From positions 6,359 through 70,358 of the forward strand of contig CAIKOA010000014.1 in NCBI GenBank assembly GCA_903828955.1: a stretch of DNA of 64,000 nucleotides, read 5' to 3'. The stretch is from an uncultured Candidatus Micrarchaeota archaeon (GTDB taxonomy: Archaea > Micrarchaeota > Micrarchaeia > Anstonellales > Bilamarchaeaceae). Shown in pieces: positions 13,493 through 64,000 of this stretch. Below the pieces are notes generated by a model. That model was not told the DNA's origin. It made no database searches and saw only the letters and a list, made by a program, of their open reading frames with translations. The translations under genes were made by a program, and so were the position numbers. Numbering within the stretch: position 1 is the stretch's first letter; each line of letters starts with the position of its first letter.

Positions 13493-13573
13493 TTTATTTC
13501 CTCCACCTGAACCATCCGTAGATGGCATTGATGGGGGTAAATTCCCCTCCAAGGGCCATCACATCATATTCAG

Positions 13574-13834
13574 TCATTGCTTCTTACCTTGCTTCCTCAG
13601 GTCAAACCACCATATTAACACTGCGAGGATTGCAAGCCCGATTCCAATCTCCAATAGCGGCAGCCCTCCGCCGCCCATCGCGCCCCTTGAAAAACCTCCG
13701 GTTGCATTGCTGGTTGCATTGCTGCCCCCGCCAGAATACCCTCCTCTTCCGCCCATCGGCCCGAGCAGCGCAAAGGAAAGCCCCAATGCCGCAATTCCAA
13801 TAAGTAATCCTTTTATGTTTGCAAAACGTTTCAT
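13574..13834 (-). CDS. Small two-TM membrane protein with Gly-rich loops
   Basis: ORF track. Hydrophobic N- and C-terminal segments flank GGRGGYSGGG; it overlaps the upstream gene by 4 nt. Confidence 0.45.
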   Translation of the reverse strand: MKRFANIKGLLIGIAALGLSFALLGPMGGRGGYSGGGSNATSNATGGFSRGAMGGGGLPLLEIGIGLAILAVLIWWFDLRKQGKKQ

Positions 13835-15360
13835 TTTCTCACCTCAACAACCTGCTTCTTCCCTCCCTTCCATCTCTTCCAGAGCAGGTATGCCGCTCCA
13901 CCCACAACAACGGTGCCCGCAATTACCAGGTAGTTCAGCCCGGAATTCCGCTGCGTATCCGAAGTCATTGCCCTCCCGCTTATCGTAATGGGTATCTGCC
14001 TCTTCACAGTCATCCATTTCCCTGACGCGTCCCTGAAAGAGACCGTCACGTTTGCAGGGTATTCCCCTGCCCGCACCTGGTTCACCGTAATGTCATACTG
14101 CACGCTGCTAAAATCGTCGCTGTCCAGCTCCCCAATGAACTGCTCGGGCTGGATCGTGTCAAGCGTAAATGCCTCGCTATCTACCCGTACCGTAGTTCCC
14201 TGGATGTTGTAATTGCCGAGGTTGGAAACGGTTACTGAAAGCGTGTTGTCCGCACCTGCGGTGAGCGGGTTGGTTTTTGCTTCCAGGTAAATTCCGACAC
14301 TTGAATCCGAAACAATCTCTACAGGAAGTGTTACGGTTGCCACCTGGTTTTCCCCGTTCTCTTCCCAGCTCAGCTCAACTGCTATGTTGTGCGTCCCGGG
14401 CTCAACATTGGCCTTTACCGGCACCGAGAAAGTTTTTGCTTCCCCGCCCGCGAGGTCACCTACCTTATATTCGTTCATCCCGATGAGGTAGGTGTCGTTT
14501 GTACCAAAGGAGAACCTCAGGTTGGATATGTCGTTTCCCTCGTTTGTGAGGTTGAGCGAGAGCCGGTCATTTTGCCCGCTCACTATGGGCGCGTTCTGGA
14601 CGAATACGAAATTCCCTTCGGATTTCTTTATCGTGACCGGAACTTCGACCACCTCGCTAATCGTTGTCCCGAGTTCATTCTGGTAAGAAAGCTGGAACTG
14701 CAGCTTGGTTGCCCCTTCCTTTGCCGCCCTTGCATCAATCGTTGCAGGGACCGTTGCCGATGCCGAAGCGTCAACAGAATCCACGTAGAGCTTGCCGGAA
14801 TTGAGGAAGCCCACATCCGGGTTCAGGAGGGTCACCTCTACTCTCCTTGCGCTGCCCCCGTCGTTTTTCAGGGAGAAGTTCACTTCGCTGATGTCTTCGA
14901 TGCTGTCCTTGGAAAGCGAGATGGACAGTACCGGCTGCTTCACGATCTGCACCGGAATTGAGGCGCTCTTCTCAAAGGTTTCTGTTTTGGAAGCAAGCTG
15001 GTTGTTGCTGTCCAGATAGTAACTCTCACCCGTTCCGGTTGCGCGCACTTCCACGGTATAAAATCCGTTGGATATGTTTTCAGATGCTGCAAAAGGGAGC
15101 GAGATTACCGTGGAAGCCCCGGATTCCAGGTCCCCGACCGCGAAGGTGCGGTCTATCCCCAATGCCTCTACGGATGAAACGGCTATGGCCACGCTTCTTA
15201 CGGTGTCGGTCTGCACTCCGGTATTCGTTATTGTAATCTGCAGCACCCCGGAGCCTCCCGGCTCGACCACTTCAGGGGAAAGTGTATACTTGTCTATGCT
15301 TAAGCCCGCAAAGCAAAATCCAAACAGCAAAAGCGCCATGAGCGCATACTTCATATCCAT
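13831..15360 (-). CDS. Secreted CARDB-like/COG1361 repeat protein with C-terminal TM anchor (partner of archaeal MacB-type ABC systems)
   Basis: Signal peptide, repeated beta-rich modules (..VSVTVSNLGNYNIQG.., ..LQITITNTG..) and a C-terminal hydrophobic helix plus KRWKGGKK tail. Confidence 0.65.
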   Translation of the reverse strand: MDMKYALMALLLFGFCFAGLSIDKYTLSPEVVEPGGSGVLQITITNTGVQTDTVRSVAIAVSSVEALGIDRTFAVGDLESGASTVISLPFAASENISNGFYTVEVRATGTGESYYLDSNNQLASKTETFEKSASIPVQIVKQPVLSISLSKDSIEDISEVNFSLKNDGGSARRVEVTLLNPDVGFLNSGKLYVDSVDASASATVPATIDARAAKEGATKLQFQLSYQNELGTTISEVVEVPVTIKKSEGNFVFVQNAPIVSGQNDRLSLNLTNEGNDISNLRFSFGTNDTYLIGMNEYKVGDLAGGEAKTFSVPVKANVEPGTHNIAVELSWEENGENQVATVTLPVEIVSDSSVGIYLEAKTNPLTAGADNTLSVTVSNLGNYNIQGTTVRVDSEAFTLDTIQPEQFIGELDSDDFSSVQYDITVNQVRAGEYPANVTVSFRDASGKWMTVKRQIPITISGRAMTSDTQRNSGLNYLVIAGTVVVGGAAYLLWKRWKGGKKQVVEVRK

Positions 15361-19486: not shown

Positions 19487-21094
19487 ATGAATGACTCAGG
19501 CTCACAAGCATACGATTCAGTGAACAAGGCATGGAAATCTACCACCCGCGTCCTCTTGGGGGAAGAGATGGGCGAAATCCGCGAATACAAGGATTGGCTC
19601 CAGGAATACGGGCGCGCACCCAGGCATGAGAAGTCTTCGCTTTCAGGCAAGCCCGTCACACTTTCCCTGAACGAATACGGAAGCAACGCAAAGTTTATCG
19701 CTTTCAACGAAGTCGATTTCCAAAAGCGCTTTGCGCCCCTCAACATAAACGAGATTAAGGACATCGATTCCATAGTCGAGGCCCTGCAGGAGCGCTTCTG
19801 CTACGCAGGAGGGCTCACGCTCGGGAATTCCCGGTTCGTTGAAGGCAGCTCCGACATCCACAACTGCACTTACATCCTGGACTCCCACAACATAGTGGAT
19901 TCAAGCTACATCGCATGCACCTACATGGCGCGGGATTCTGAGATGCTTTTCGGATGCGACGCGATTGGGGAAGCAACGCATTCAATCCGCGGGCTGGAAT
20001 TATGGAAGAGCACCCGCTGCTTCGACGTTTTCGAAGTGAGGATGTCTTCCGACTGCTACTACTCGTTCAATCTGGAGAGCTGCCAGAACTGCTTCTTCTC
20101 CTTCAACCTCAAGGCGAAGAACTACAGTATCGGCAACCTGGAGCTGGGAAGGGATGCATACCTGAAAAGGAAGGAGGCGCTTCTCGAGGAAATCCGGGAC
20201 TCCCTTTCCAAAAAGAAGAAAGTTGCCGGAATCCTTGACATATTGCTCAATGCAAAAGACCGGAGCGCGGAAATCAAGGAAGAATTCGCGGAGGTTTCCA
20301 GGAAGGCCGAATACCACAAGGAGTTCTCGGATATGTCCGGAATCGACAAGGTTTTCTCCGGAACCTCCCAATTGCTTCTTGGGAAGGCGCTCGGCCCGAT
20401 CAAGGCATACGAGCCGTGGCTATCAAGGCACGTGCTCATGCCGGAATTCTACAAATCCGCAATAAGCGGGAAGCAGGCTGTGCTTACCAGCTACTCCAAA
20501 TTCGGGAGTTTCCCGAGAAACCGGCTGGTTGCCCTTGAGGAGGCGCCCCTTCTCTCGTGCCTGAAACTCAGCCAAAAGGAATGCGATTCCATTTCGATTT
20601 CATCGGCTCCTGAATACATCGGGAAGCTCGCTTACTCGACCGGGGATGCGGACATCCAGAACGCCCGGATGGTCGATTGCTGCATGATGGGATTTTCCTC
20701 CAACTGCTACAAGTGCACAGTGGCTCCGGATGTGAAGAATTCCGGGTGCTCGTTCTGGCCGCGGGCGTCCGAAAGCATATTCGGCTGCCATTCCAGCCAC
20801 GAATCCAAGTTCGTCATAAACGGGTATTTCTCGAGCAAGATCTCCCGCGCCTTCGAAGTGGATTTGTGCAGGGACTGCTCCGATATTTACTTCTCGCACA
20901 ACTGCGAGGCGATGCAGGATGCGATGTTCTGCTTCAACGCAAAGAACCTGAAGAAGGCGATAGGGAACGTGCAGTACCCGATAGAGGAATACAAGCGGTT
21001 CAAGTCCTCCCTTCTGGAGCAGATTTCCGGGGAGCTTGAGAAAACCAAATCCCTCCATTTCGACATCTATAGCATAGGCTCCGCAGAGGCGTAA
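19487..21094 (+). CDS. Uncharacterised Cys-rich protein, paralog A (two internally duplicated Cys-rich modules separated by a charged coiled-coil linker)
   Basis: ORF track; no recognisable family. Conserved modules end in NC..C..(F/M)(F/C)(S/F)FN.K(A/N)...IGN. Its stop lies 2 nt before the start of paralog B. Confidence 0.7.
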   Translation: MNDSGSQAYDSVNKAWKSTTRVLLGEEMGEIREYKDWLQEYGRAPRHEKSSLSGKPVTLSLNEYGSNAKFIAFNEVDFQKRFAPLNINEIKDIDSIVEALQERFCYAGGLTLGNSRFVEGSSDIHNCTYILDSHNIVDSSYIACTYMARDSEMLFGCDAIGEATHSIRGLELWKSTRCFDVFEVRMSSDCYYSFNLESCQNCFFSFNLKAKNYSIGNLELGRDAYLKRKEALLEEIRDSLSKKKKVAGILDILLNAKDRSAEIKEEFAEVSRKAEYHKEFSDMSGIDKVFSGTSQLLLGKALGPIKAYEPWLSRHVLMPEFYKSAISGKQAVLTSYSKFGSFPRNRLVALEEAPLLSCLKLSQKECDSISISSAPEYIGKLAYSTGDADIQNARMVDCCMMGFSSNCYKCTVAPDVKNSGCSFWPRASESIFGCHSSHESKFVINGYFSSKISRAFEVDLCRDCSDIYFSHNCEAMQDAMFCFNAKNLKKAIGNVQYPIEEYKRFKSSLLEQISGELEKTKSLHFDIYSIGSAEA

Positions 21095-21096
21095 AC

Positions 21097-22695
21097 ATGA
21101 ATTCCCAGAACTACGAAGTCCTGAATAGGGCGTGGAAATCCACCTGCAAGGTGCTCTTTGGCGCGGAAATCGGCGACATGAAGGAATACGAGCCCTGGCT
21201 CCTTTCCGGAGTGGACGCCCCCATGAAGAAGAAATCCGCGGTTTCCGGCAAAGATGTTTATGTGGGAATTGAGTTCTACAAGGATGAAAGCAGGTTCATA
21301 GGGCTGGATGAGATTGATTTCAATAAGAAATTCCAGCCCCTCAACATAAACGAGGTTAAAGACATCGACAGCATCGTTGAATCATTGCAGGAAAGGTTCC
21401 TCTACACCGGAAACATCGTCCTTGGAAATTCCCAATTCGTAGAAAAAAGCTCGAACGTAATCGATAGCTCATACATTTACAATGCAACCGAGCTCGTTGA
21501 TGCGAAATACATCGCCCACCTCACCTGCGCCCCTGAAAGCGAATACTGCTTTGGCTCGAATGGCGCAGGGGTGAGCAAGCAGTGCATCCACATATACGAA
21601 ACATTCGACTGCAACCGCTGCTTAGAAATCTGGAATTCGAGAAGCTGCGCAGACGGCTACTTCACCTACAACTGCGACGGGTGCAGGGAAACCTTCTTCA
21701 CGTTCAATTCCTACGGAAAAAAGTACTCTGTCGGAAATCTCGAACTTGACAAGGACAAGTACCTCCAATTGAAGAAGAAACTAATAGAAGAAATCCGGGA
21801 AGAGCTCGTTTCCAAAAAACAGCTCAAATCTCTAATGGACATCATTTCCTCGGCAAAGGAATACAGGAAAGAGAACGAGGAGCTCAAGCAGATTCTGAAG
21901 GGGCACAAGTTCGAAGAGCCCCGCGCAAACAAGGAACTGGTCGAAAAGGAGTTTTCGGAAACCGCCGCGATTCTTTTCGGAAAGCCGTTGCACGGAATCG
22001 ACAACTATTCCAGATGGCTGAGCCGCAACATCTGGGAGCGCAATGAATGCAAGTCCGCCCTCACCGGGAGAAGGACCGTGGTTGTGGATTACTGCAACCT
22101 TGGAAGGATTCCGGAGCCGCGCCTGATCCGTAAAGACGAGTGGGAAGTGGTAAAAGAGAAAATGAAATTGAGCGCAGAGGACGTTGATTCCCTCACCCTG
22201 AAGAATGCCGGGGAAACAATAGGGAAAATCTCCTACCTTCCCTTCGACTACAATACGAACAGCACGAACATGATTGATTGCACGACCACCCTCAATTCCG
22301 CGGACTGTTATCTTGTGTTGCCTGCGATATTCTCAAAGAAATCCGGGGTTTGCACCTGGATAAGGCATTCCTCGGATGTATTCGGCTGCTGCGCGGGATT
22401 CCATTCCTCCTTCTGCATGAAAATCAACTACTCCAAGAAGATGAACCGCTGTTTCGAAACCGATAATTCCAGCGGATGCTCCGGGGGCTACTTCCTGCAC
22501 AACTGCGAGAACGTGAACGATTCCATGTTCTGCTTCAATATGAAGAACCTCCGGAACGCAATCGGGAACGCCCCTCTCCAGCTGGATAAATACAAGGCGG
22601 TAAAGTCTTCCCTCCTTGAGCAGATGCATTCCGAACTCGAGAGAAACAAGGAGCTCAAATGGGACATTTACAACATCGGATGCCTTTCAGAGTAG
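21097..22695 (+). CDS. Uncharacterised Cys-rich protein, paralog B (tandem duplicate of 19487..21094)
   Basis: It is clearly alignable to paralog A along its full length (MN.Q.Y..LN.AWKST..VL.G.E.G...EY..WL..., LNINE(I/V)KDIDSIVE(A/S)LQERF, C-terminal SSLLEQ...ELE..K.L..DIY.IG). Confidence 0.7.
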   Translation: MNSQNYEVLNRAWKSTCKVLFGAEIGDMKEYEPWLLSGVDAPMKKKSAVSGKDVYVGIEFYKDESRFIGLDEIDFNKKFQPLNINEVKDIDSIVESLQERFLYTGNIVLGNSQFVEKSSNVIDSSYIYNATELVDAKYIAHLTCAPESEYCFGSNGAGVSKQCIHIYETFDCNRCLEIWNSRSCADGYFTYNCDGCRETFFTFNSYGKKYSVGNLELDKDKYLQLKKKLIEEIREELVSKKQLKSLMDIISSAKEYRKENEELKQILKGHKFEEPRANKELVEKEFSETAAILFGKPLHGIDNYSRWLSRNIWERNECKSALTGRRTVVVDYCNLGRIPEPRLIRKDEWEVVKEKMKLSAEDVDSLTLKNAGETIGKISYLPFDYNTNSTNMIDCTTTLNSADCYLVLPAIFSKKSGVCTWIRHSSDVFGCCAGFHSSFCMKINYSKKMNRCFETDNSSGCSGGYFLHNCENVNDSMFCFNMKNLRNAIGNAPLQLDKYKAVKSSLLEQMHSELERNKELKWDIYNIGCLSE

Positions 22696-24690
22696 TATTT
22701 GCCCCCTCTTCATTTTTTTTACCGGGCTCTTCTCTTCCTTCTCAAGCTTGCTTGCGCTCGCCTTGTCAATTATGGATTCAGGAAGGCTGAGCCTTTCCTT
22801 GAATGGAGAAGCAACCTCTCCTCCATCTCCTCCATCTGGATCCTCACCAGGCCCGTCTCCCGGCCCCTTTCCCTTTTCTCCAGAAGGCGAAGGAGGGGGT
22901 TCCGGAGGAACATAAACCGGAAGCGCATTCTCGTCGAACCCCCACTTCTTCATGTCCACAACCTTGAGTTTCATCGGAAGGAGGTAATTCACCCCATCGT
23001 AGAGCCTTGCAATGCACTCCCGCTGGTTGAGCCGGACAAACATCTCTTTCTTGGATTCCTCCAGCTCGGTCTGCCCGCGGTGCTTCTTGAAGTATTCCTC
23101 CAGCTTAATCTCCATCACCGAACTCAGGAGCGCCGCATCCTGCCGATTCAACTTGAACGCAACAATGTTCCTCACGTTCGAAACCATGCTATCCACGATC
23201 TCCTTGCTCAATTGGGAGAGGTACTGGCACGAGAAGTACGCGTATAGGTTGAACTTCCTGGTCTCGGAAAGGATGTCCCTTGCCACCTTGGTCTCAATCC
23301 TTGGGAACTCATCCATCACAAGTATGGTAGGCTTATCCATGAGCTTCCCGCTGATTGCAAGCAGGTACATCTGGTTTATGATCGCCCCGGAAAGGAAGCT
23401 TATCATCCTCCTTCCGAAGAACTTCGGGTCGAAGGACACAACCGTAATCCTGTTCTTCTGAATCAATTCCAGGAGGTTCTCCTGCTTCTTCTCCTTCCCA
23501 AGGTATAACTGGTATTCCCCGATGAAGTTCAATATCGGCAATATCGCGGTATTGAAGTGGTGTATGTAGATGTCATTGTACTCCTCATCGAAGAACCTCT
23601 TCACCTCATCGTTGTCGCACATGCTGACGAATTCCGCCTTTACCGTAGCATCCGTAAGCAAAGAGCTGATGTTCGTAAGTTCGAGCTTGTCTATTGAACT
23701 CAGGAGGTGCACCGCGTAGAACAGCACACGCTCCGAGTACTTGTTCTCCTGCCCAATCGAAGAGGCAAGCAATTGCGAAACCAGCTGCGTAAGCATCGGA
23801 GTCTTCTCCTTGCCCACATCCAGCGGCTCCACGAAATTGGTCACGAAGTTGACGAGCTTAGCCTTAGGGAAAAGGCGCACGAACTCTCCGTGCGGGTCGA
23901 TTATGAGTATCCTTGCCCCTTCCTTGTATTTCTGCTCAATCGCCTTCAACATGACGTATAACGCCTTGCTCTTTCCGGAACCCGAAGTTCCCACCACAAG
24001 GGTGTGCTGGAGAGAATCGAAATTATCCACTCCCATGCTAAAGCCGGTATCTTCGAAAACGGGAAAATTGGAGGTTGTCTGTATCCTTTTCGGCAGTGGG
24101 TCAAGCACCTCGATGTATACAGACGGGTTCTCCTCCAAATTTACCCTAAAAAACTTATGCGGCTCGGTAACCAATACCGCCCTTTTCCTGCCCTTCTCAT
24201 CCGTGGCTGACCCTACTGCCACAAAGCCCCCGAGAAACTTGGTGAAGCCCAGGTCGAGCTCCTCCATGTTTTCCTTGAGCATGAAATCCAGGAAATCGTA
24301 GCTGCCTCCCCCTATCTTATAGAACTTTGAGAGGGGCGTTCCCACCGCTTCCTGGAGGTCCATCTTCTTCGCATCCCCGAACCTGAAGGGGAAAACGAGC
24401 GCGGACTGGCTCTGGAGGTGCTTCCTCTCCTCTATGAAGAAGGATACGGTATTGTTCTTCCTCTTTACAATGAGCCTGAACGCATTCGGGGAAAACACCG
24501 AAGAAAAATCCAGGAACCCCAGAATAGGAACCCTGGGCTTTGCCATCTGGTTGAAGAAAGCCAGTATGTCCTCGGGCTCGACCTTCTCAGAATAGAGGAA
24601 CATCTCCCTTGCCGAGAGGGGCCCCCCAGTGAGGGTTTCATCCCTTGTAAGGGAAATCTTCATCCCGATTGGAAGCTTTATTTCTGCCAT
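22687..24690 (-). CDS. HerA/FtsK-superfamily P-loop ATPase (COG0433/DUF87-like) with C-terminal Pro/Gly/Asp-rich low-complexity tail
   Basis: Walker A VVGTSGSGKSKA, Walker B ILVMDEFPR. The ~230-aa N-terminal region may be a HAS-barrel. The 3' end overlaps paralog B convergently by 9 nt. Confidence 0.7.
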   Translation of the reverse strand: MAEIKLPIGMKISLTRDETLTGGPLSAREMFLYSEKVEPEDILAFFNQMAKPRVPILGFLDFSSVFSPNAFRLIVKRKNNTVSFFIEERKHLQSQSALVFPFRFGDAKKMDLQEAVGTPLSKFYKIGGGSYDFLDFMLKENMEELDLGFTKFLGGFVAVGSATDEKGRKRAVLVTEPHKFFRVNLEENPSVYIEVLDPLPKRIQTTSNFPVFEDTGFSMGVDNFDSLQHTLVVGTSGSGKSKALYVMLKAIEQKYKEGARILIIDPHGEFVRLFPKAKLVNFVTNFVEPLDVGKEKTPMLTQLVSQLLASSIGQENKYSERVLFYAVHLLSSIDKLELTNISSLLTDATVKAEFVSMCDNDEVKRFFDEEYNDIYIHHFNTAILPILNFIGEYQLYLGKEKKQENLLELIQKNRITVVSFDPKFFGRRMISFLSGAIINQMYLLAISGKLMDKPTILVMDEFPRIETKVARDILSETRKFNLYAYFSCQYLSQLSKEIVDSMVSNVRNIVAFKLNRQDAALLSSVMEIKLEEYFKKHRGQTELEESKKEMFVRLNQRECIARLYDGVNYLLPMKLKVVDMKKWGFDENALPVYVPPEPPPSPSGEKGKGPGDGPGEDPDGGDGGEVASPFKERLSLPESIIDKASASKLEKEEKSPVKKMKRGQILL

Positions 24691-53173: not shown

Positions 53174-54463
53174 TCAGGGGTGTACCCTGGTCCTATCCCT
53201 TGGGAACATTGCGCACTCGCGTATATTCTCCACACCGCAGAGCTTCATCGTAAGCCTTTCCAGCCCGATGCTCCAGCCAGCATGCGGAGGCGCTCCAGAG
53301 CGGAACGCATCTATGTAAAATTTGAAATTCAATGGGTCCAGCCCCTTCTTCCGCAGCGCATCCTCAAGAAGCGAAGGAAGGTGGATTCTCTGCGCACCGC
53401 TCGAAATCTCAAGCCCGCGGTAAAGCAAATCATAAGCCTTGCAGATTTCCGTATTCGTTTCGTGCGGCATTGAGTAGAATGCGCGGGTTGAAGTCGGCCA
53501 ATCATGAATCATTACCAGTTCCTCCCCAAGAATCTCATCCAGTTTCTTCTCCTGCTCCTTTGTGAAGTCCTGCCCCCATTCCATCGGGCTCCCTTCCGAA
53601 TTCAATTTATCCACAAGAGCGGTATAAGTGTAGCGCGGAACCTTGGAAGGAATTTTCACTTCGCTCTTAAGAACGGAAAGCTCTTCCTGCATTTTGGAAA
53701 CCTCTTTCAGGATGTGCAGGGTAACATCGCTCAGCGTATCCATTCCATCATTATCATCTGCAAAGCCCATCTCCACATCCATCTGCAATACTTCATTCAA
53801 ATGAGTAGTCGTATTGTGCTTCTCCGCCCTCCAGACAGGAGTAGTTATCATTACCTTATCCATCCCGCCCACAACCGCAAGCTGCTTGTAGAGCTGCGGA
53901 GACTGCACAAGGAATGCCTGCTGCTCAAAATACTGGAGCGCAAACACATCGGTTCCGCCTTCGGTTGCCGCTGCAACTATGGAAGCGGGGTGGATTTCCA
54001 CAAACCCTAGTTCAGTGGTCCTCTTCCTGAAGGATTCAATCACTTTCGCCTTAATTGTAAATATAGCGGAAACGTCCCTCTTCCTCAAATCAACGTAGCG
54101 GAAATTCAACCTTGTATCAAGTTCCGAAGGGACAACCCCGGTAGGGTCCACCGGCAATTTCACTTCAACCTTTCCAAGAAGTTCCACTTCCGAAGGAATG
54201 AGTTCAACCCCTCCGGGGGCAACCTTGTTCTCGGAAATTTTTCCCTTAACCGAAATAACATCTTCCTTATTTCTCTTCATTAATTCCATTACCGAATCCG
54301 GAACAACCCCTTTTTTCGCAATTACCTGCATTATCCCGGTCCTGTCTCTCAGCTGGATGAAAATGAGCTTTCCAATATCGCGGATTTCGTGCACCCACCC
54401 CGCAATCTTAACTTCCTGCCCGGCTTTCTTTCTTGCCTCTGAAATGTAATCCGTTCTCATCAT
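53174..54463 (-). CDS. aspS: Aspartyl-tRNA synthetase (archaeal type)
   Basis: LPVDPTGVVPSELDTRLNFRYVDLR, FRAEKHNTTTHL, GGSQR-equivalent and GAPPHAGWSIGLERL motifs align with archaeal AspRS. Confidence 0.9.
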   Translation of the reverse strand: MMRTDYISEARKKAGQEVKIAGWVHEIRDIGKLIFIQLRDRTGIMQVIAKKGVVPDSVMELMKRNKEDVISVKGKISENKVAPGGVELIPSEVELLGKVEVKLPVDPTGVVPSELDTRLNFRYVDLRKRDVSAIFTIKAKVIESFRKRTTELGFVEIHPASIVAAATEGGTDVFALQYFEQQAFLVQSPQLYKQLAVVGGMDKVMITTPVWRAEKHNTTTHLNEVLQMDVEMGFADDNDGMDTLSDVTLHILKEVSKMQEELSVLKSEVKIPSKVPRYTYTALVDKLNSEGSPMEWGQDFTKEQEKKLDEILGEELVMIHDWPTSTRAFYSMPHETNTEICKAYDLLYRGLEISSGAQRIHLPSLLEDALRKKGLDPLNFKFYIDAFRSGAPPHAGWSIGLERLTMKLCGVENIRECAMFPRDRTRVHP

Positions 54464-56786: not shown

Positions 56787-57365
56787 TCAGTAATAAATCG
56801 TATTCACCGAAAGGATTCTCCCGTTCGTATCCACTTCCACCATATACCCGTATTTAGAGGAAGGCGATTTCCAGTCCACTTTCCATCCGCTCGCATCGCG
56901 GTAAACAGTGGGGACAGCATCCTTGTACGCAGTGACGTACTTGTTTACGCTCGTAGTCCCGGTATTCGTGTGCGAGGCAATAATTGCCTCCTCATCAAAT
57001 GCGATTGCGCACCCTTCCCCTTCGCAGACCTTGCATCCCGAAGTAATGTACTCGGGAGGCTCGGTTACGAAGTTCTGCACCGGGTAATAATAGAAATAAT
57101 GTATTCTCACAGGGCACGGGGTTTTCGACCCTTCGGAAACGCTCGCCCTTATGCGGAGGTATTGCTCCCCCTGGTCATTGGCCTTGGTTTCCCAGTCCAT
57201 TATCTGGATGGAATCCGCATCCGGGTGCTTTGCCCTCAGGTCCTCCAGCACATAGGAGGTTGCGCCAGCATCCAGCGTTTTGCTTTGATAGAATTTCATT
57301 CCGGCTATAATTACTAGGGAAATGACGATGACCGCAATAATTGCGTACGTAAGCCTGCTTGCCAT
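56787..57365 (-). CDS. Membrane-anchored extracytoplasmic protein, hypothetical (Cys-containing)
   Basis: ORF track; N-terminal TM anchor AIIAVIVISLVIIAG. Confidence 0.5.
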   Translation of the reverse strand: MASRLTYAIIAVIVISLVIIAGMKFYQSKTLDAGATSYVLEDLRAKHPDADSIQIMDWETKANDQGEQYLRIRASVSEGSKTPCPVRIHYFYYYPVQNFVTEPPEYITSGCKVCEGEGCAIAFDEEAIIASHTNTGTTSVNKYVTAYKDAVPTVYRDASGWKVDWKSPSSKYGYMVEVDTNGRILSVNTIYY

Positions 57366-57418: not shown

Positions 57419-57814
57419 ATGGACCCCCAGAAATTCAAGTGGTGGAGCCTGTTCATCAACTCCTGCCTCGCCCTATTAATTATATCTGTATTGGCAGAGA
57501 TCGTTTTCTACGATAGCATCGCTTCCATGGGCCTGGAAGGTGCAATGGAAATCGGAGAGCTCCTCCTTTCCCTGGTTCTTCTTACCGACCTCACGATTTC
57601 GCTCGTGAAGGCAAAGGACCGTGGCGCATTCCTCAGAAAGAACGCAATAATGATAATCGCGGTGCTCCCCTGGGGATTCATCTTCCGCGCCCTATCCTTT
57701 CTGAGGCTGGGCGAGCTCCCAATTTTTTCAGAGCTCGCGGCAGGCGAAGCCGCAATTCTCAGCAGGGGCGCCAGGCTTGCGGCAAAAACAAAAGAAATGG
57801 TTGAGAGGTTGTAA
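57419..57814 (+). CDS. Small membrane protein, hypothetical
   Basis: ORF track; three hydrophobic helices. Confidence 0.4.
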   Translation: MDPQKFKWWSLFINSCLALLIISVLAEIVFYDSIASMGLEGAMEIGELLLSLVLLTDLTISLVKAKDRGAFLRKNAIMIIAVLPWGFIFRALSFLRLGELPIFSELAAGEAAILSRGARLAAKTKEMVERL

Positions 57815-57820
57815 TGTTCT

Positions 57821-60800
57821 CTAAAACCGATATCCCCCAAAGAGGATGAAACCCCCATAAATCTCTTTTGTCCTGCTCGTATCAAGTTGCCCGAGCCGGT
57901 CCCTGAACACTCTCTCGATGCTTCCGACTACTCCTTTTCCCCCAAGGTACCAGTCTTCATTGCTGGAAGTGGTCCGGACCTCTACCCCGCCCTGGTCAGT
58001 AGTCTCTTCGTAGTGGGTAATGGCGCTTCCTCTTTCCCTGGCCATCATTTCCCTTCTAAGATACTCGAGATCGACAGTAAAGGTAACTCCGGAGTGCCCT
58101 ACCCACATCAGCCTGAGGCCCGGGCTATACCTGATTGTGTCAAGGTCCTCTACCATTTGGTAAGTATTTGTCCCGAGCTCTTTTGAGAGCGCCAGATACG
58201 GTTGCACACGGCCTGGATAAGGGGCTCCCTTCCACCACGGCGTCCAGCCAAGAACCATGGCTTCGTAAACATTTCTCGTGACGTCAACTTTAGCGGTGCT
58301 GGCCCCAGGTTCCAACATTCCAGTAACGCTGCTGGATCCCGTGCCGGTAGGATATTCCGTGCCGGTAGGATATTCCGTAGTCCCGGTAGGCTTATACTCC
58401 AATGTTCCGCTGCGCCACATGCCGCCGACTATCGCCCCGATTCCCCAATCGTTCTCGGGAAGAGTCACGAATCCCACATCGAAATTCGGCAATCCCTTGG
58501 TGCTCCTTAAATCCTTTCTCCAATATTCCCCTGCCGCAAGCGCGAGTATGACGTGCGTTAATGGAACGACTACTTTCCCCCCTGCGGAGCCCCAGGGCGC
58601 AGGCTGGATGTTGAACGAGAGCGCGAATGCCCGGTCAACCTCGACATATGAGTTAATCAGTGCGCTCCACTGGGCAGGCCCGCCCCATATCGCTTCAATC
58701 CCCGCCCTTGTCGTCTTATCCAGCGAGTTCCATTCTATTCCCGCGGTTCCAAAGTAACTTTGCACTTCAATGAGCCCAAGTGCGGTCTGCATCGTCCGCA
58801 GAAGGGTCTGCTTTCTTTCCAGCTCGGTTATTGCCTGGCTCCTGGACATCGCCTGGTCCAGCCTCCCCGAATAAATAAGCTCGTCACTCTGCCTGCTCGC
58901 GCGGAGGTCCTGCAAGTCAGCCTCCACTCCGCGCAGTTCTGAGACCACTTTCTTCAGGCTCCACTGTGTTTCCATCAGCTGCCAGAGGCTGCTTCCCTGG
59001 AATCTTCCACTGTTCCATTCTGTCGCGCCAAGAACTCCCGCACTGCTTACCTGGCCGCTTCTTTCAGCCGCTCTTTCCGAGAGCTGCCTCCAGTCCCCGA
59101 CAAGGAACGCATCGATTATTCCCGGATCCCTATACATCGTGCCAAGCAAGCCGGAATTGCTCTCATCACTGCGTATCTGCGCCATTGCAAGGGTGTAGAG
59201 CTCATTTCCCCCTGGAAGCGCGGGAACATTTGCCCCCTGCCATGCAAAAGTGTATTCCATTGCACTGTCTATCCAGGATTTCTCGGCTGCAAAACCAACC
59301 TCTGCCCCCCTTTCCCCTATTTTTATCTTTCCGACCCTGTCCACTGTTCCGCCGCCCCAGAACTTTTCCGTTTTTCCTGCGGGGGCTTCTCCAGGCGTTG
59401 TTTCCCCTATGGTAGAAGTGGCGGAACCCCTTTGGCTCTCATCAGTTTTTACTTCCCTCCCAACAAGGGTGACGAATCCTACCGCATTCTTCATGCCTAA
59501 GAAACCTTTCTCGAAAAGGACGCTTATCCCTCCAGCATATTCCTTTGCTATCCTTTGTGCATCCCCTTCTTGCACCACCTTCCCCTGTTCATCCACCTGT
59601 TCCCCTCTTTCAAGGGTTGGCAGCGGCTCCAGGAGATTCGTCCTTGAAATGGAAGGCCTTCCTCCGGCGTTATATAGCGTCGCCCCAACCACTGAAGGCG
59701 AAGCCGGCGGAGGAGCCCCTCCTGTGAATAAATTTGTGAAATTCACCCCTATCAGGCAGCCGTACATATGCCAATTCTGCTCAGCGCCCGGAACCTCCGC
59801 ATTTGTTCCCGCTGCCTGCTCAACGCCCGAAACTTCATTAGGAGCTCCTCCCACTTTATACTTCTGCTTTCCAAAGAGCCCCCTGACGCTCCCGTACTGT
59901 TCACCAGGCCCTATCTGGAATCCGGTGAATAGCCTTTGGACCTGCTCAGGGTCAAGGTCTATGTATCCAATCCTGTACCAGTCGCCCTTGATCCTTCCCC
60001 AGGTATACGCCCGTAACTCTTTCTCCGTAGGAATATTCTCTTCTGTTGTTGTAACCCCCGCCGTGGTAGTTTTTGTGACGTCTTCCTGCTCCTTTGCAAC
60101 TATCAGGGTTACCCCATCGGTATTGTGTTCCCGGGCATAATGCTCCAGCTGCGCCGTGATATTCTTATCGCTGACTTTTTGGTATGTTCCCTCTTCCCCA
60201 TGATAAATAAACGGCACGGGCTCTTGTAGCGGGTATTTTTTCTTTGTCGACCCCGGGGGCACACCCGGCTGAACAGTAGTAGGGGTCACACCCGGCTCAA
60301 TAGGAGGAGGGGGCACAATATCTGCAGGGGTTTTTGTTTCGCTTGTAGTTTCACCCCAGGTGCCGTTGACGCTTCCCGTAAACGAAACCCATCCGGGATA
60401 ATTTAAATCATTGAAAAGCGCATTGACACCCTGCCTTTCCTGCGTTGTCATTGTTTGCTCTGGAGGAGTGTATGTCTGTTCTGCGCCCTCGCCTTCCCAT
60501 CTTCCCTCAGCATTAGACTCGGTTGTCCCGGTTGTCACCGTATGAGCTCCGGCCGCCTTTGTCACCGGGCCGAACGCATATATTCTTTCAGTGCCCGTAT
60601 ATTTTGACGCGCTCTCGCTTCCTGTTTCATCCTCTACCGATTGTGCAGAGCCAGAGCCTCTTGCGTCAACCCCGGCGCGCTCTAGCCCCATGCCAGGCAC
60701 GTACCTTGGATATGGCACATCGGAGAGCAGTTCAAACAGCCTGCTGAGAGAGCCCGGGATGAAGCTGTTTACCCCATAGGTCCTCTCCGGAAGCAGTTTC

Positions 60801-63800
60801 GCCTTTTTTGGGCTGAAGAAATCAAAGAAATACTCGTGCAGGGAAGGCTCCCTGTTCCAGAGCGTTGCAAGCTCCGGGGGTGCAGAGGTCCTTATGTCTT
60901 CAAAGATCTGGTTCGCCTCAGCCTGATAATTCGCGTTGTCTTCGGATAGGGAGCCAAATCCAGACCTCGCTAAGCGGGCAAGGTCATATGCCCGCCTGTC
61001 CATTGCATCGGTTATGGCCGCGTCCTGGGGAGCCCTGTATATGGGTATCTCACCAGGGCGGATTGCGCCGCTCTTTCTTGAATATGTGTGCATGTAAGTC
61101 CTGAGTATTTCACCTATCGTCCTTGCTGCAAACATGCTCTTTTCCATGTTTGTCCCTTCATAGAGAATGGGGTTTAGCGTAAGCATGTCCTCAAGGACCC
61201 TCAGGTTCTCATTAAGCGCGTTTGCAAAAGCCAGGGGAACTACCACCATCATGTAGTCGGATAGCACCCTTCCTGAACCTATTTCCAGGTATGCGTTGCG
61301 GTTCGAAATCATGTTGGCAGTGGTATTTATCTTATTCAATATTGAAATTGCTTCCTGGTAGGAAGTTGCGGTTTCCAGTGCGAGCGGAACCGCATTCAGC
61401 ATGTACCCCAGGTGCCCGCCCCTGCCCATGTTCAGCAGTTGCGTCGATACGACATCCATAATCTGCTGAGCCGCCACTCCTTTATACCTTTGGTCGGTTT
61501 CGGTGTTTGCAATCTCAACCGTCCCGTCCACCGGCTTGGTGGTGTCAGTTAGCTGAAGCTCAAGATTGGTGCTCTTAAATGCCTTCCAGGTTACCGTGCA
61601 GAATGCACGCTGGGAAAGAAGGTCCATCTTTGAAAGGAAGGCTCTTGGCGCCTCCGAAAGCTTCCCGGTGGTTTGTTCCCTTTCGTTCTCCGGTTTCATC
61701 AGGTCGACAAGCTCATTAAGGTCATTCCTGCCCTCCATCTGGCTTATGAAATCCAGTTTCGCGTCTCTGAAATCATAGTTCTCCAGGGCATACTTGTGCA
61801 GCATGGCAAGCTTCACGATGCTCCTCGTTTCTGCGATAAAGCCGTCTCGCTCTCCGGGTGGAACTGCATAGTTGTGTTGCATCGACCCGACCGGAGCGAA
61901 GTCAAGCGTTGCCATCGCGCTCCAGTTGTATCCAAATACGGAATCAATCACATGCTGCGTAAGCGCGGCGTTTTTCCAAAGTATTTCTGCGATTTGGAAT
62001 ACTCCTGCTTCCATTCCGGAGCCAGCGTACTTCGCCCTCAGAGTTTCAAGCTCTGCCTTGTCCTTTGCGCCCACAACCTCCAGGAAAACATCCTGAAGGT
62101 GCGCGTTCCAGACCGAAGGGTCAACGCTTGAAGAGCGCTCTATGTATCCGTTGAAAGCCGCGATGACTTCGGCTATCGCTTTCTTCATTCTTTCAACATC
62201 AAACCCATCCGGCCCGACGAATTCTCCCATCACAAGCAGGAGCCTCATCACATTGTCGGCGCCTCCCAATTCAGGAGGTATGTTAAAATCTATATTGTGG
62301 TCCCTGAAAAACTGGTTCATGTCCCCAAGTGTGACCTTGCTGGCCGCCTTCTCTATTATCGCTCTCCTCTCTTCTTCGCTTATCCCTTTTCCCGCCTCTT
62401 CTATCAGGCGGTTTGCTTCCTCAGGGCTCTTGCCTTTTGCTTCTTCAACTGCATTCTCCATAAGCTTCCTGTTTCTTTGCTGTATCTGGAAAAACGGCCC
62501 ATTCTCCTTCTTTCCTTTGCCAAGGAGCTTGTCCAGCTCGTCCATCATGTATTTCTTGAACGAACTCAGCTGGTCCGAAGGTATGTTATCATAAGCAGAA
62601 AAGCCTTCACTCAGGCCCCCGCCATTTCTTGAAAGTGTATCCATGTTCATGAGCACATTGAACATGTATTTCATCTGCTTCTGGCCCTCATCCTGCTTCT
62701 CTTCTGAAACAGGCGCTTCCGCCCTTGCGCTCGCCTCTCTCTTGGCCTGGGCCTGCTTTGCCCTGGCCTCGGCCTGCCGCACGAATACGTCCAGATTGAA
62801 ACTAGCCCACAGCGCCCTCCCGCTGGCGTCCCCGTTCTTCTCAACTATTCCTTCCACTGCCTTCTTCAGGTCGCTATAATAGAGCTGCTCCTTCTTGCTC
62901 CAATTGCCGGTTTTTTTGCTGAGAATGTCCACCAGTGCAGCATTTACCCCGTTTGCGCTTATCAGGTTGTTTTTCATCAGCCAGTCCAGCTTCCACAGGG
63001 ATTCTATGAGCTTGGCATCGTCTCTTACATAACCAACCTCCTTAGAGTCCTTTCCGTAAGAAGGCATTATGTGCTCCCTTATCCCGTCCATCACTTCATA
63101 CTGTGCGCGCACGTCCCCCAGGCCTTCAACCCCCCTGGAAGCATCCATAACCGTCGTTATGAAAGAATCAAGGCTGAGAGCGGACCATAGCTTTTTCTTT
63201 GCACCTTCAGACATTCCCTCTATTGCTTCCTTCAGGCCCCAGTAGTAGCGTTGATCCGTATCTATCCATCCTGCCGTGTTCCCTTTGAGTATGTCAACAA
63301 TTGCCGCCTTAACTTCGTTTGTGCCTACCTTGCCTTTCCTTGCCCAGTAGTCTATCTCCCACAGCTTCTTTACCAGCTCAGGATCGCTCCTAACGAAGCC
63401 TTCGTAATCAGGATTTTCATAACAGGAAATGATTCGTTTTCTTATGTCCCCCATGAAAGGCTTCCAGTCGGCTACCTGCATCGCATCCAATAATTCTTTC
63501 ATATTGGTTATGCCGAGTTCATCTCTCCAGTAGTCTGGGCCTTCCTTTGCTTCGAGTTCAGGCTGCGCAGGCTTCGGAACCGTTTCTCCAAAACCTGGCG
63601 CAGGCCCTAACTTCTCCCCTGCCCTTATCGCCTTTGCATCTTCCGTGACCTTTGCCTCCATTGCAACATTTACGATTTCCGAGTTTATCTCTGCTATTTT
63701 TTCAGGGAAATACACGAAATTCCCTTTCCTGTCCCTCAGCGCCATGGTAAGCAGGCTTTGCACAAAAGGGTCTTGGAGAACTTTTGAAAGGTCTCCCCCC

Positions 63801-64000
63801 GCATTGGAGGAAATCATCTCGAACATTTTCAGGATTGTGGAGTATCTCGAGGCATCGGCGCCTTTCGGCTCAATGCAGACCGCGATGTCTGAAGCACAAT
63901 TGAGCGCATGGCGCGCATGGTCTATTTTTTTCGTATTCGCTTCAGGTGCAAACGCCTTCACGTTGTCAACCATCGGGTGTTCTGATTGCCCCTTGCGCAC
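57821..64000 (-). CDS. Giant protein (>2059 aa, N-terminus beyond window end) of unknown function with internal ~95-aa repeats and a TEYPTG tandem repeat
   Basis: A single uninterrupted ORF of 6.18 kb reaches the window edge; no catalytic motif recognised. Confidence 0.7.
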   Translation of the reverse strand: MRKGQSEHPMVDNVKAFAPEANTKKIDHARHALNCASDIAVCIEPKGADASRYSTILKMFEMISSNAGGDLSKVLQDPFVQSLLTMALRDRKGNFVYFPEKIAEINSEIVNVAMEAKVTEDAKAIRAGEKLGPAPGFGETVPKPAQPELEAKEGPDYWRDELGITNMKELLDAMQVADWKPFMGDIRKRIISCYENPDYEGFVRSDPELVKKLWEIDYWARKGKVGTNEVKAAIVDILKGNTAGWIDTDQRYYWGLKEAIEGMSEGAKKKLWSALSLDSFITTVMDASRGVEGLGDVRAQYEVMDGIREHIMPSYGKDSKEVGYVRDDAKLIESLWKLDWLMKNNLISANGVNAALVDILSKKTGNWSKKEQLYYSDLKKAVEGIVEKNGDASGRALWASFNLDVFVRQAEARAKQAQAKREASARAEAPVSEEKQDEGQKQMKYMFNVLMNMDTLSRNGGGLSEGFSAYDNIPSDQLSSFKKYMMDELDKLLGKGKKENGPFFQIQQRNRKLMENAVEEAKGKSPEEANRLIEEAGKGISEEERRAIIEKAASKVTLGDMNQFFRDHNIDFNIPPELGGADNVMRLLLVMGEFVGPDGFDVERMKKAIAEVIAAFNGYIERSSSVDPSVWNAHLQDVFLEVVGAKDKAELETLRAKYAGSGMEAGVFQIAEILWKNAALTQHVIDSVFGYNWSAMATLDFAPVGSMQHNYAVPPGERDGFIAETRSIVKLAMLHKYALENYDFRDAKLDFISQMEGRNDLNELVDLMKPENEREQTTGKLSEAPRAFLSKMDLLSQRAFCTVTWKAFKSTNLELQLTDTTKPVDGTVEIANTETDQRYKGVAAQQIMDVVSTQLLNMGRGGHLGYMLNAVPLALETATSYQEAISILNKINTTANMISNRNAYLEIGSGRVLSDYMMVVVPLAFANALNENLRVLEDMLTLNPILYEGTNMEKSMFAARTIGEILRTYMHTYSRKSGAIRPGEIPIYRAPQDAAITDAMDRRAYDLARLARSGFGSLSEDNANYQAEANQIFEDIRTSAPPELATLWNREPSLHEYFFDFFSPKKAKLLPERTYGVNSFIPGSLSRLFELLSDVPYPRYVPGMGLERAGVDARGSGSAQSVEDETGSESASKYTGTERIYAFGPVTKAAGAHTVTTGTTESNAEGRWEGEGAEQTYTPPEQTMTTQERQGVNALFNDLNYPGWVSFTGSVNGTWGETTSETKTPADIVPPPPIEPGVTPTTVQPGVPPGSTKKKYPLQEPVPFIYHGEEGTYQKVSDKNITAQLEHYAREHNTDGVTLIVAKEQEDVTKTTTAGVTTTEENIPTEKELRAYTWGRIKGDWYRIGYIDLDPEQVQRLFTGFQIGPGEQYGSVRGLFGKQKYKVGGAPNEVSGVEQAAGTNAEVPGAEQNWHMYGCLIGVNFTNLFTGGAPPPASPSVVGATLYNAGGRPSISRTNLLEPLPTLERGEQVDEQGKVVQEGDAQRIAKEYAGGISVLFEKGFLGMKNAVGFVTLVGREVKTDESQRGSATSTIGETTPGEAPAGKTEKFWGGGTVDRVGKIKIGERGAEVGFAAEKSWIDSAMEYTFAWQGANVPALPGGNELYTLAMAQIRSDESNSGLLGTMYRDPGIIDAFLVGDWRQLSERAAERSGQVSSAGVLGATEWNSGRFQGSSLWQLMETQWSLKKVVSELRGVEADLQDLRASRQSDELIYSGRLDQAMSRSQAITELERKQTLLRTMQTALGLIEVQSYFGTAGIEWNSLDKTTRAGIEAIWGGPAQWSALINSYVEVDRAFALSFNIQPAPWGSAGGKVVVPLTHVILALAAGEYWRKDLRSTKGLPNFDVGFVTLPENDWGIGAIVGGMWRSGTLEYKPTGTTEYPTGTEYPTGTGSSSVTGMLEPGASTAKVDVTRNVYEAMVLGWTPWWKGAPYPGRVQPYLALSKELGTNTYQMVEDLDTIRYSPGLRLMWVGHSGVTFTVDLEYLRREMMARERGSAITHYEETTDQGGVEVRTTSSNEDWYLGGKGVVGSIERVFRDRLGQLDTSRTKEIYGGFILFGGYRF

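What the first reader, a model, noticed from the sequence alone, without database searches (positions are those of the whole stretch)
57821..64000. Giant (>2059 aa) ORF of unknown function running off the window
A 6.18-kb uninterrupted ORF has no recognisable catalytic motif and no N-terminal end in the window. It contains ~95-aa internal repeats (YEGFVRSDPELVKKLWEIDYWARKGKV... versus VGYVRDDAKLIESLWKLDWLMKNNLISAN...) and an exact 18-nt tandem repeat at about 58341-58376 that encodes TEYPTGTEYPTG. Giant proteins in compact archaeal genomes are often surface or host-interaction factors.
Basis: seen in the sequence. Interest (0 to 1): 0.6.

Follow-up and report, generated by a model that had tools for sequence, protein, structure and literature searches.

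The report
Orphan exported giant protein of Micrarchaeota
The long open reading frame is a real gene for a roughly 2,093-residue protein, probably exported, from a tiny symbiotic archaeon (Micrarchaeota); it belongs to a very small family with no recognisable relatives, is probably a cell-surface protein, and its function is still unknown.

Summary
The ORF (57821-64000, minus strand, 2,059 codons plus stop), the 18-nt tandem repeat and the internal protein repeat are all real. The gene barely leaves the window. Two other assemblies carrying the identical neighbour gene call it complete at 2,093 aa, so about 34 residues are missing.

The organism is a Micrarchaeota (DPANN) archaeon. An exhaustive HMMER search of 1.84 billion proteins found six relatives. 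Those that carry a name are 'hypothetical protein'; three are labelled Candidatus Micrarchaeota and one, a fragment, 'bacterium'. Pfam, NCBIfam, PHROGs, PADLOC and PDB sequences give nothing.

Four of five complete relatives start with a Sec-type signal peptide. None has a transmembrane helix.

The architecture, in order:
- a variable helical N-terminus, which here carries a duplicated 121-aa module;
- a conserved all-alpha domain (pTM 0.69) with no structural neighbour;
- an acidic Thr/Gly/Pro/Glu spacer;
- a roughly 730-aa beta-rich region that ends in F or W in every member.

The best reading is an exported cell-envelope protein with a conserved C-terminal assembly or anchoring module and an exposed variable tip. 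It is not the known Micrarchaeota S-layer protein, a SPEARE-type giant or an autotransporter. The outer-membrane-barrel look of the C-terminus is only a lead.

The parts
57821..64000 (-). Giant ORF: 2,059 codons plus a stop at 57821-57823. The inferred true start is about 102 nt beyond the window, giving a full length of 2,093 aa.
63476..64000 (-). Residues 1-175: the variable N-terminal helical region. Residues 35-102 align with residues 104-164 of relative P0002.
   Evidence: 30% identity, pairwise E 1e-5
63113..63475 (-). Internal repeat copy 1 (residues 176-296).
62726..63112 (-). Internal repeat copy 2 (residues 297-425). The module was not detected in any other family member.
60701..62725 (-). 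Conserved all-alpha domain (residues 426-1100). It is modelled with confidence for residues of about 430-930. Residues 931-1100 are highly conserved but modelled with low confidence.
   Evidence: pLDDT 68.5, pTM 0.69; no structural neighbour
60026..60700 (-). Acidic low-complexity spacer rich in Thr, Gly, Pro and Glu (residues 1101-1325, pI 4.7).
60255..60317 (-). 27-nt tandem repeat (2.3 copies, 83% match) that encodes the Pro-rich part of the spacer (PPPIEPGV / TPTTVQPGV).
57824..60025 (-). Beta-rich C-terminal region (residues 1326-2059), rich in Gly and aromatic residues. About 25 long strands are predicted.
   Evidence: low-confidence model, DSSP
58751..58990 (-). Long helical hairpin or coiled coil inserted in the beta region (residues 1671-1750).
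   Evidence: helices at model residues 416-442 and 455-491, the best-scoring part of that model
58397..58618 (-). The most conserved stretch of the family (residues 1795-1868). It holds two hydrophobic segments rich in Gly and Ala, PWGSAGGKVVVPLTHVILALAAGEYW and WGIGAIVGGMW.
58339..58378 (-). Exact 18-nt tandem repeat (TEYPTG x2) in a hypervariable loop (residues 1871-1905).
57824..57859 (-). C-terminal amphipathic strand ...IYGGFILFGGYRF. All 10 family sequences examined end in F or W.
57419..57814 (+). 131-aa small membrane protein on the opposite strand. It is conserved next to the giant gene in L007 and L009 and absent in L001.
56787..57365 (-). 192-aa protein with an N-terminal membrane anchor and a four-Cys ectodomain, on the same strand downstream. 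It is conserved in L001, L007 and L009 at 59-62% identity.

Best explanation
The ORF encodes a roughly 2,093-aa protein of a Micrarchaeota (DPANN) archaeon that is probably exported to the cell envelope. It belongs to a very small orphan family known so far only from this lineage.

Proposed working: the protein is exported by the Sec pathway. The conserved C-terminal region of about 730 aa is rich in beta strands and Gly. It contains a helical hairpin, a hydrophobic core and a terminal aromatic strand, and it serves as the assembly or anchoring module in the envelope. The acidic Thr/Gly/Pro/Glu spacer holds the conserved all-alpha domain away from the anchor. The fast-evolving N-terminal helical tip, which here carries a duplicated 121-aa module, faces outward, where it most likely contacts the host or the surroundings.

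Shown here: the gene is real, its length is known, the family is small, the domain order and the conservation gradient are as described, relatives carry signal peptides, and known anchors and known domains are absent.

Inferred: export of this particular protein, because its first 34 residues are not in the window; the anchoring role of the C-terminus; and the contact role of the N-terminus.
For: - The gene is real and complete at 2,093 aa.
- The lineage is archaeal and Micrarchaeota.
- An exhaustive HMMER search of 1.84 billion representatives gave only 6 hits, with 90% clusters of 1-5 members. Four of the six representatives carry a name, always 'hypothetical protein': three are labelled Candidatus Micrarchaeota and the P0003 fragment is labelled 'bacterium'. 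Four more loci came from JGI metagenomes.
- P0001, P0004, P0005 and the corrected start of P0006 carry Sec-type signal peptides, with a basic n-region, a 13-20-aa hydrophobic core and ASA/ARA | Q/E.
- There is no transmembrane-grade hydrophobic segment in the mature part; the highest 19-residue Kyte-Doolittle mean is 1.54.
- Identity to the window protein by region: N-terminal regions (residues 1-425) 1-15%, alpha core 26-69%, spacer 11-42%, beta core 41-81%, TEYPTG loop 3-26%.
- Variation and tandem repeats sit in the tip, the spacer and one loop.
- Invariant residues are mostly Gly, Pro and aromatic, which suggests a structural role rather than a catalytic one.
- The gene keeps a fixed place among housekeeping genes, and beside the 16S rRNA gene in two relatives. 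It has no viral or mobile-element signal.
- A membrane-anchored 192-aa partner is conserved downstream on the same strand.
Against: - The first 34 residues of this protein are unseen, so its own signal peptide is unverified.
- One complete relative (P0002) has no signal peptide and no room for an upstream extension.
- N-glycosylation sequons are not enriched, unlike many archaeal surface proteins.
- There is no expression, localisation or binding evidence.
- The beta-region model is unreliable (pLDDT 38.9).
- The alpha domain has no structural neighbour that would hint at binding or catalysis.
Confidence: 0.5

Rival explanations
1. It is a structural lattice component of the cell envelope, either an alternative S-layer protein or a protein associated with the S-layer. 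In this reading the 192-aa membrane-anchored neighbour acts as its stalk or anchor, by analogy with SlaA/SlaB of Sulfolobales.
For: - Relatives carry signal peptides.
- The protein is acidic (pI 5.2) and has few Cys, 5 in 2,059 aa.
- Its size is near the upper range quoted for S-layer proteins.
- It is a single-copy gene at a conserved housekeeping position.
- An anchored partner is conserved downstream on the same strand.
- 11 of 49 Micrarchaeota genomes had no homologue of the known S-layer protein (10.1101/2021.04.28.441871).
Against: - The characterised Micrarchaeota S-layer protein is a different family: 101 kDa, with the PF05123, TIGR01564 and TIGR01567 domains. None of those domains is detected here.
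- Sequons are not enriched.
- The partner gene is missing from the distant members.
- A fast-changing N-terminus carrying lineage-specific modules is not expected of a lattice protein.
Confidence: 0.2
2. The C-terminal region is a membrane-active module that makes or docks the conduit between the symbiont and its host. It could be a large beta-barrel like those of bacterial outer membranes, or a pore-forming or fusion-type element.
For: - About 25 strands are predicted, most of them 9-17 residues long, with tight hairpins.
- All of the top 50 PDB matches by Foldseek are outer-membrane barrels, including TbpA, BauA, SprA, Toc75, TamA, BamA, LptD and porins.
- All 10 family sequences end in F or W, and 9 of 10 have a hydrophobic residue at position 3 from the end.
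- The best-conserved stretch is a pair of hydrophobic Gly/Ala-rich segments flanked by Trp, next to a long helical hairpin.
- An unidentified 21-nm barrel-like docking structure has been seen in the envelope of the related DPANN archaeon ARM-1 (PMC11329633).
Against: - The model is of low confidence (pLDDT 38.9, pTM 0.29).
- No Foldseek hit reaches E 1e-3, and TM-scores are at most 0.19.
- No Pfam barrel family matches.
- No outer membrane or BAM machinery is known in archaea, and the supposed outer membrane of a cultivated Micrarchaeon proved to be an S-layer (10.1101/2021.04.28.441871).
- Amphipathic strands that end in an aromatic residue also occur in soluble beta proteins.
Confidence: 0.12
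3. It is a secreted toxin or effector of the polymorphic-toxin kind, released to act on host or competitor cells.
For: - It is a large exported protein with no anchor.
- The organism is an episymbiont.
- In one distant genome the gene lies beside other giant ORFs and a GDSL-lipase protein.
Against: - In polymorphic toxins the C-terminal tip is the variable toxic part. Here the C-terminal region is the most conserved and the N-terminus varies.
- No toxin, RHS/YD, peptidase or nuclease domain is found, and no immunity-like small gene is consistently downstream.
- Conserved residues are mostly structural.
Confidence: 0.08
4. It is a cytoplasmic giant protein, such as a scaffold or cytoskeletal protein, and the hydrophobic N-termini of relatives are incidental or are uncleaved anchors.
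For: - P0002 has no signal peptide.
- Sequons are not enriched.
- The window part shows no hydrophobic N-terminal segment.
Against: - Four of five complete relatives have a textbook n-h-c signal with a conserved A-x-A site.
- The Thr/Pro-rich acidic spacer and the near absence of Cys fit an exported protein better.
Confidence: 0.08

Closest known systems
SPEARE-type giant surface proteins of Nanohaloarchaeota (for example SVXNc_0300, 9,409 aa; PMC10266531)
   Same: Both are very large, Sec-exported proteins of a DPANN episymbiont. Both are poorly conserved between lineages and are suspected to mediate host contact.
   Different: SPEARE proteins are 4-5 times larger. They are built from Ig-like and fibronectin-like arrays, are membrane-anchored and carry a VirB4/TraG-like ATPase domain. 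None of these features is detectable here. No sequence similarity was found.
S-layer protein of Ca. Micrarchaeum harzensis (SLP_Mh, Micr_00292; 10.1101/2021.04.28.441871)
   Same: Both come from the same phylum, both are exported, acidic and poor in Cys, and both are candidate envelope proteins with an unresolved anchoring mechanism.
   Different: SLP_Mh is 101 kDa, has the PF05123, TIGR01564 and TIGR01567 S-layer domains and many glycosylation sites. The present protein is about 230 kDa (my estimate from its length), has none of these domains, and its sequons are below expectation.
Bacterial autotransporters (type V secretion) and other outer-membrane beta-barrels
   Same: The order of parts resembles an autotransporter: a signal peptide with a long n-region, a large N-terminal 'passenger', a spacer and a beta-rich C-terminal region ending in an aromatic residue. 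Foldseek ranks only outer-membrane barrels at the top.
   Different: There is no match to any Pfam barrel or autotransporter family. The structural matches are not significant and rest on a poor model. The organism is an archaeon, in which no outer membrane or BAM machinery is known.
SlaA/SlaB two-component S-layer of Sulfolobales
   Same: Both pair a large exported protein without a membrane anchor with a small membrane-anchored protein encoded just downstream on the same strand.
   Different: No homology was found. The partner here is anchored at its N-terminus and is only 192 aa long. The pairing is confined to the closer relatives, and in this window a gene on the opposite strand separates the two.

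Membership tests
Archaeal S-layer proteins of the SLP_Mh type | An S-layer domain (Pfam PF05123 S_layer_N; TIGR01564/TIGR01567) | tested here: not met
   No Pfam or NCBIfam hit at E <= 1 for the window protein and none at E <= 0.1 in Pfam for five relatives.
Archaeal S-layer proteins of the SLP_Mh type | Dense N-glycosylation sites | tested here: not met
   6 N-x-S/T sequons against 10.4 +/- 3.1 in shuffles.
Archaeal S-layer proteins of the SLP_Mh type | Among the most abundant proteins of the cell; forms a 2-D lattice | not testable with these tools
   This needs proteomics or electron microscopy.
SPEARE / nanohaloarchaeal giant surface proteins | Arrays of Ig-like or fibronectin-like domains | tested here: not met
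   No Pfam hit of any kind.
SPEARE / nanohaloarchaeal giant surface proteins | A membrane anchor plus a VirB4/TraG-like ATPase domain | tested here: not met
   No transmembrane-grade segment and no ATPase domain.
Autotransporters (type V secretion) | An N-terminal Sec signal peptide | tested here: inconclusive
   Present in 4 of 5 complete relatives. The first 34 residues of this protein lie outside the window.
Autotransporters (type V secretion) | A C-terminal translocator barrel recognisable as PF03797 or a related family | tested here: not met
   No Pfam hit.
Autotransporters (type V secretion) | A C-terminal strand ending in an aromatic residue (beta-signal) | tested here: met
   All 10 sequences end in F or W; 9 of 10 have a hydrophobic residue at position 3.
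Autotransporters (type V secretion) | A producer cell with an outer membrane and BAM machinery | not testable with these tools
   No BAM-like gene was seen among the genes scanned in the window. The literature shows an S-layer, not an outer membrane, on a cultivated Micrarchaeon (10.1101/2021.04.28.441871).
Outer-membrane beta-barrel fold in general | Significant structural similarity of a confident model to known barrels | tested here: inconclusive
RHS/YD-repeat or Tc-toxin shells; polymorphic toxins | YD/RHS repeats, or a variable C-terminal toxin domain with an immunity gene | tested here: not met
   No Pfam or PADLOC hit. The C-terminus is the conserved end.
Virus or mobile-element structural proteins | A match to PHROGs or a location on viral contigs | tested here: not met
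   No PHROG hit for the window protein, P0004, P0005 or P0006; P0002 has one non-significant hit at E 0.1. No relatives in IMG/VR. BFVD matches are generic helices with TM-scores of about 0.1.

The most novel reading that the evidence does not exclude
The conserved C-terminal 730 residues form a membrane-inserting module made by an archaeon. It would be either a giant beta-barrel with a bacterial-style aromatic C-terminal signal, or a pore- or fusion-type element built from the helical hairpin and the Gly-rich hydrophobic segments flanked by Trp. Such a module would supply the unidentified protein of the envelope barrel or cytoplasmic bridge seen between Micrarchaeota-like symbionts and their hosts.
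Probability: 0.12. Interest if true: 0.9.

Novelty: new variant of a known kind. Interest (0 to 1): 0.45.

Why it matters
DPANN archaea depend on physical contact with a host, and the proteins that make this contact are almost all unknown. This family is vertically inherited and single-copy. It has been seen only in Micrarchaeota-type genomes, and its members are probably exported.

It combines an alpha domain that has no structural neighbour with a beta-rich C-terminus that looks superficially like a bacterial outer-membrane protein. That makes it a concrete, testable candidate for an envelope or host-contact component.

If the barrel or pore reading held, it would bear on how these symbionts bridge to their hosts and on the old question of whether some Micrarchaeota have a second membrane. 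If it does not hold, the family remains one more large hypothetical surface protein.

Tried and rejected
- The word-indexed protein search was run three times, with the whole protein, the family alignment and the 133-aa conserved core. It returned nothing each time, although the relatives are in that collection. I treat this as a tool limitation, not as absence.
- Single-protein scans of JGI metagenomes and IMG/VR found nothing. Only the alignment-based metagenome scan found loci.
- The beta-region model is unreliable, so its fold matches count only as a lead.
- The S-layer identity was considered and rejected, because the known Micrarchaeota S-layer protein is a different family.
- A search for the 121-aa repeat in other members found nothing.
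- A viral or mobile origin was rejected.
- Codon and GC composition are unremarkable.
- The DNA of the assemblies that contain the complete gene is not held. The missing 34 residues and any strain variation of the repeats therefore could not be read.
Full report
**Observation.** The minus strand is open from the window edge at 64000 to a stop at 57821-57823, a run of 2,059 codons. By my arithmetic, chance gives such a run with probability about 1e-43, and the frame is conserved in another genome. The 18-nt tandem repeat is exact, at 58339-58378, in 2.2 copies, and encodes TEYPTG twice. A second tandem repeat of 27 nt lies at 60255-60317 in a Pro-rich stretch. The internal protein repeat is real. 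Residues 176-296 and 297-425 share 36% identity over 105 aa with a pairwise E of 3e-21. The period is about 121 aa rather than 95.

**Length.** The gene does not run far beyond the window. I looked up the 131-aa ORF that lies 7 nt from the giant gene's stop. It is found on two other assemblies, of 14,358 and 13,021 nt. Both have the same order and lengths of neighbouring genes and the same 7-nt spacing. Both call the giant gene complete at 2,093 aa and leave about 1 kb of gene-free sequence beyond its start. The start codon is therefore about 102 nt outside the window, and 34 residues are missing. Window residues 35-102 align with residues 104-164 of relative P0002, which fits a short missing N-terminus. 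The DNA of those assemblies is not held, so the missing residues could not be read.

**Organism and setting.** The neighbours are archaeal housekeeping genes: RLI/ABCE1, aspartyl-tRNA synthetase and carbamoyl-phosphate synthase, and Alba in the gene calls. The one relative among 185,579 species genomes is in a MAG titled Candidatus Micrarchaeota. That relative shares 59% identity over residues 420-2059. It keeps the same downstream genes and starts about 700 nt from the 5' end of an archaeal 16S rRNA gene. A second relative, P0002 in L007, is likewise next to 16S-like sequence. The position among core genes, the lack of relatives on viral contigs and the absence of significant PHROG or PADLOC matches argue against a mobile or viral origin.

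**Family.** Pfam, NCBIfam and PDB sequence searches find nothing for the window protein. Pfam also finds nothing for five relatives, and a profile of the family finds nothing in the PDB. An exhaustive HMMER search with residues 860-2059 against 1.84 billion representatives gave six hits, of 1,550-1,989 aa plus one fragment, at 34-65% identity over the matched stretches. Their 90% clusters hold one to five sequences. Four of the six representatives carry a name, always 'hypothetical protein'. Three of them are labelled Candidatus Micrarchaeota and the P0003 fragment is labelled 'bacterium'. An alignment-based scan of JGI metagenomes added four loci. In one distant genome the family member lies beside further giant ORFs. 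One of these, of 1,590 aa, shares the member's N-terminal helical module (28% identity, E 7e-31) and also ends in ...GGEF.

**Architecture.** Comparing regions across the alignment gives a clear pattern. The figures below are identity to the window protein.
- The N-terminal regions (residues 1-425) are barely conserved, at 1-15%. In this genome they contain the duplicated 121-aa module, which no other member has.
- Residues 426-1100 are conserved: 14-50% for residues 426-600 and 26-69% for residues 601-1100.
- Residues 1101-1325 form an acidic spacer rich in Thr, Gly, Pro and Glu, conserved at 11-42%.
- Residues 1326-2059 are conserved again. The peak is at residues 1751-1870 (41-81%). A hypervariable loop at residues 1871-1905 carries the TEYPTG repeat.

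Invariant residues are mostly Gly, Pro, aromatic or hydrophobic, which points to a structural rather than a catalytic protein. The best-conserved stretch holds two hydrophobic segments rich in Gly and Ala, PWGSAGGKVVVPLTHVILALAAGEYW and WGIGAIVGGMW.

**Structure.** With a six-sequence alignment, residues 430-1100 gave a usable model with pLDDT 68.5 and pTM 0.69. It is all-alpha and confident for residues of about 430-930. Foldseek found no neighbour in the PDB (best E 0.2, TM-score about 0.1). In BFVD it found only generic long-helix matches. Residues 1260-2059 gave a poor model with pLDDT 38.9. Its secondary structure is about 25 strands, most of them 9-17 residues long, plus a helical hairpin of about 75 residues, which is the best-scoring part. 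A Foldseek search with this poor model gave no significant match (best E 2.7e-3, TM-scores <= 0.19). However, all 50 top matches are outer-membrane beta-barrels. I treat this as a lead only.

**Export and anchoring.** P0001, P0004 and P0005 begin with a basic n-region, a hydrophobic core of 13-20 residues and an ASA/ARA | Q/E site. The annotated start of P0006 is too short. The in-frame upstream sequence in two loci encodes MAGVPRMTLPWLAAAALALGAPDARA | QS. P0002 has no such signal and no room for one. No member has a transmembrane-grade segment in the mature part. I saw no lipobox and no C-terminal hydrophobic sorting signal in the sequence. All ten sequences end in F or W, and nine of the ten have a hydrophobic residue at position 3 from the end. 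In the closer relatives a 192-aa protein follows on the same strand; it has an N-terminal membrane anchor and a four-Cys ectodomain.

**Comparison with known systems.**
- The characterised Micrarchaeota S-layer protein is 101 kDa, has the PF05123, TIGR01564 and TIGR01567 domains and is heavily glycosylated (10.1101/2021.04.28.441871). None of these holds here.
- The giant SPEARE-type proteins of Nanohaloarchaeota are Ig-domain arrays with a membrane anchor and a VirB4-like ATPase (PMC10266531). None of that is present here.
- The order of parts and the aromatic C-terminus recall bacterial autotransporters. No barrel family matches, and no outer membrane is known in archaea. The supposed outer membrane of Micrarchaeota turned out to be an S-layer in the cultivated strain (same preprint).
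- Cryo-tomography of the related ARM-1 archaeon showed an unidentified 21-nm barrel-like docking structure in the symbiont envelope (PMC11329633). This leaves room for, but does not support, a role of this family in such a structure.

**Verdict.** The finding is a real gene for a roughly 230-kDa protein (my estimate from its length), most probably exported, from an orphan family so far seen only in Micrarchaeota-type genomes. The best-supported reading, at a confidence of about 0.5, is a cell-envelope protein. In this reading its conserved C-terminal beta module assembles or anchors in the envelope, and its spacer, alpha domain and variable N-terminal tip are exposed.

The rivals are a lattice or S-layer-associated component (0.2), a membrane-active barrel or pore (0.12), a released toxin (0.08) and a cytoplasmic protein (0.08).

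It is a new variant of a known kind, namely large exported proteins of DPANN symbionts. Interest is moderate. It would be high only if the membrane-active reading were confirmed.

Noticed in passing
window 60255-60317: A second tandem repeat inside the giant gene: 27 nt, 2.3 copies, 83% match. It encodes the Pro-rich spacer motif (PPPIEPGV / TPTTVQPGV). The closest relative has a deletion in this stretch.
   Followed up: partly
window 56787-57365 (-) and 57419-57814 (+): Two small orphan membrane proteins stay next to the giant gene in related genomes. One is a 192-aa protein with an N-terminal anchor and four Cys, including a CxxC. The other is a 131-aa hydrophobic protein on the opposite strand, which is absent in L001. 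Neither has a Pfam family.
   Followed up: partly
L001 1-747 and L007 about 1-740: In two relatives the giant gene is transcribed divergently from the 16S rRNA gene, about 700 nt away, and the contigs end inside the rRNA gene. The two assemblies with the complete gene of this population also have about 1 kb without gene calls at that place.
   Followed up: partly
L006 1-9885: In a distant Micrarchaeota MAG the family member is preceded by three large ORFs. They are a 3,373-aa ORF, a 737-aa protein with a GDSL-lipase domain, and a 1,590-aa protein that shares the member's N-terminal helical module and aromatic C-terminus. This may be an island of large exported proteins.
   Followed up: partly
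window 19487-24690: A HerA/VirB4-like ATPase (DUF87, TrwB-like; 667 aa; 22687-24690, minus strand) lies next to two adjacent orphan ORFs of 535 and 532 aa with 20 and 22 Cys and no Pfam family (19487-22695, plus strand).
   Followed up: no
window 11050-15360: A 509-aa acidic protein with a CARDB domain, one Cys and many sequons is a likely surface protein. It lies directly beside two MacB/FtsX-type permease genes.
   Followed up: no
window 4538-5830 (-) and 53174-54463 (-): There are two separate class II aminoacyl-tRNA synthetase genes of the Asp/Asn/Lys type (tRNA-synt_2 plus an anticodon OB fold), of 430 and 429 aa, in the same 64 kb.
   Followed up: no
L007 7187-8353: An IS605 OrfB / TnpB-like (Cas12f-like) gene is inserted between the giant gene and the 193-aa partner gene in one relative.
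   Followed up: no
L001 1047-1373; L006 19218-21683; L012 (ORF running to the contig end at 7150); L004 2116-3021: Small or acidic proteins with lipoprotein-like signals (hydrophobic segment followed by G-C or A-G-C) occur near family members in several genomes.
   Followed up: no
The word-indexed protein search returned no hit, even though the relatives are present in the same collection by exact look-up. Negative results from that tool should not be read as absence for this family.
   Followed up: yes
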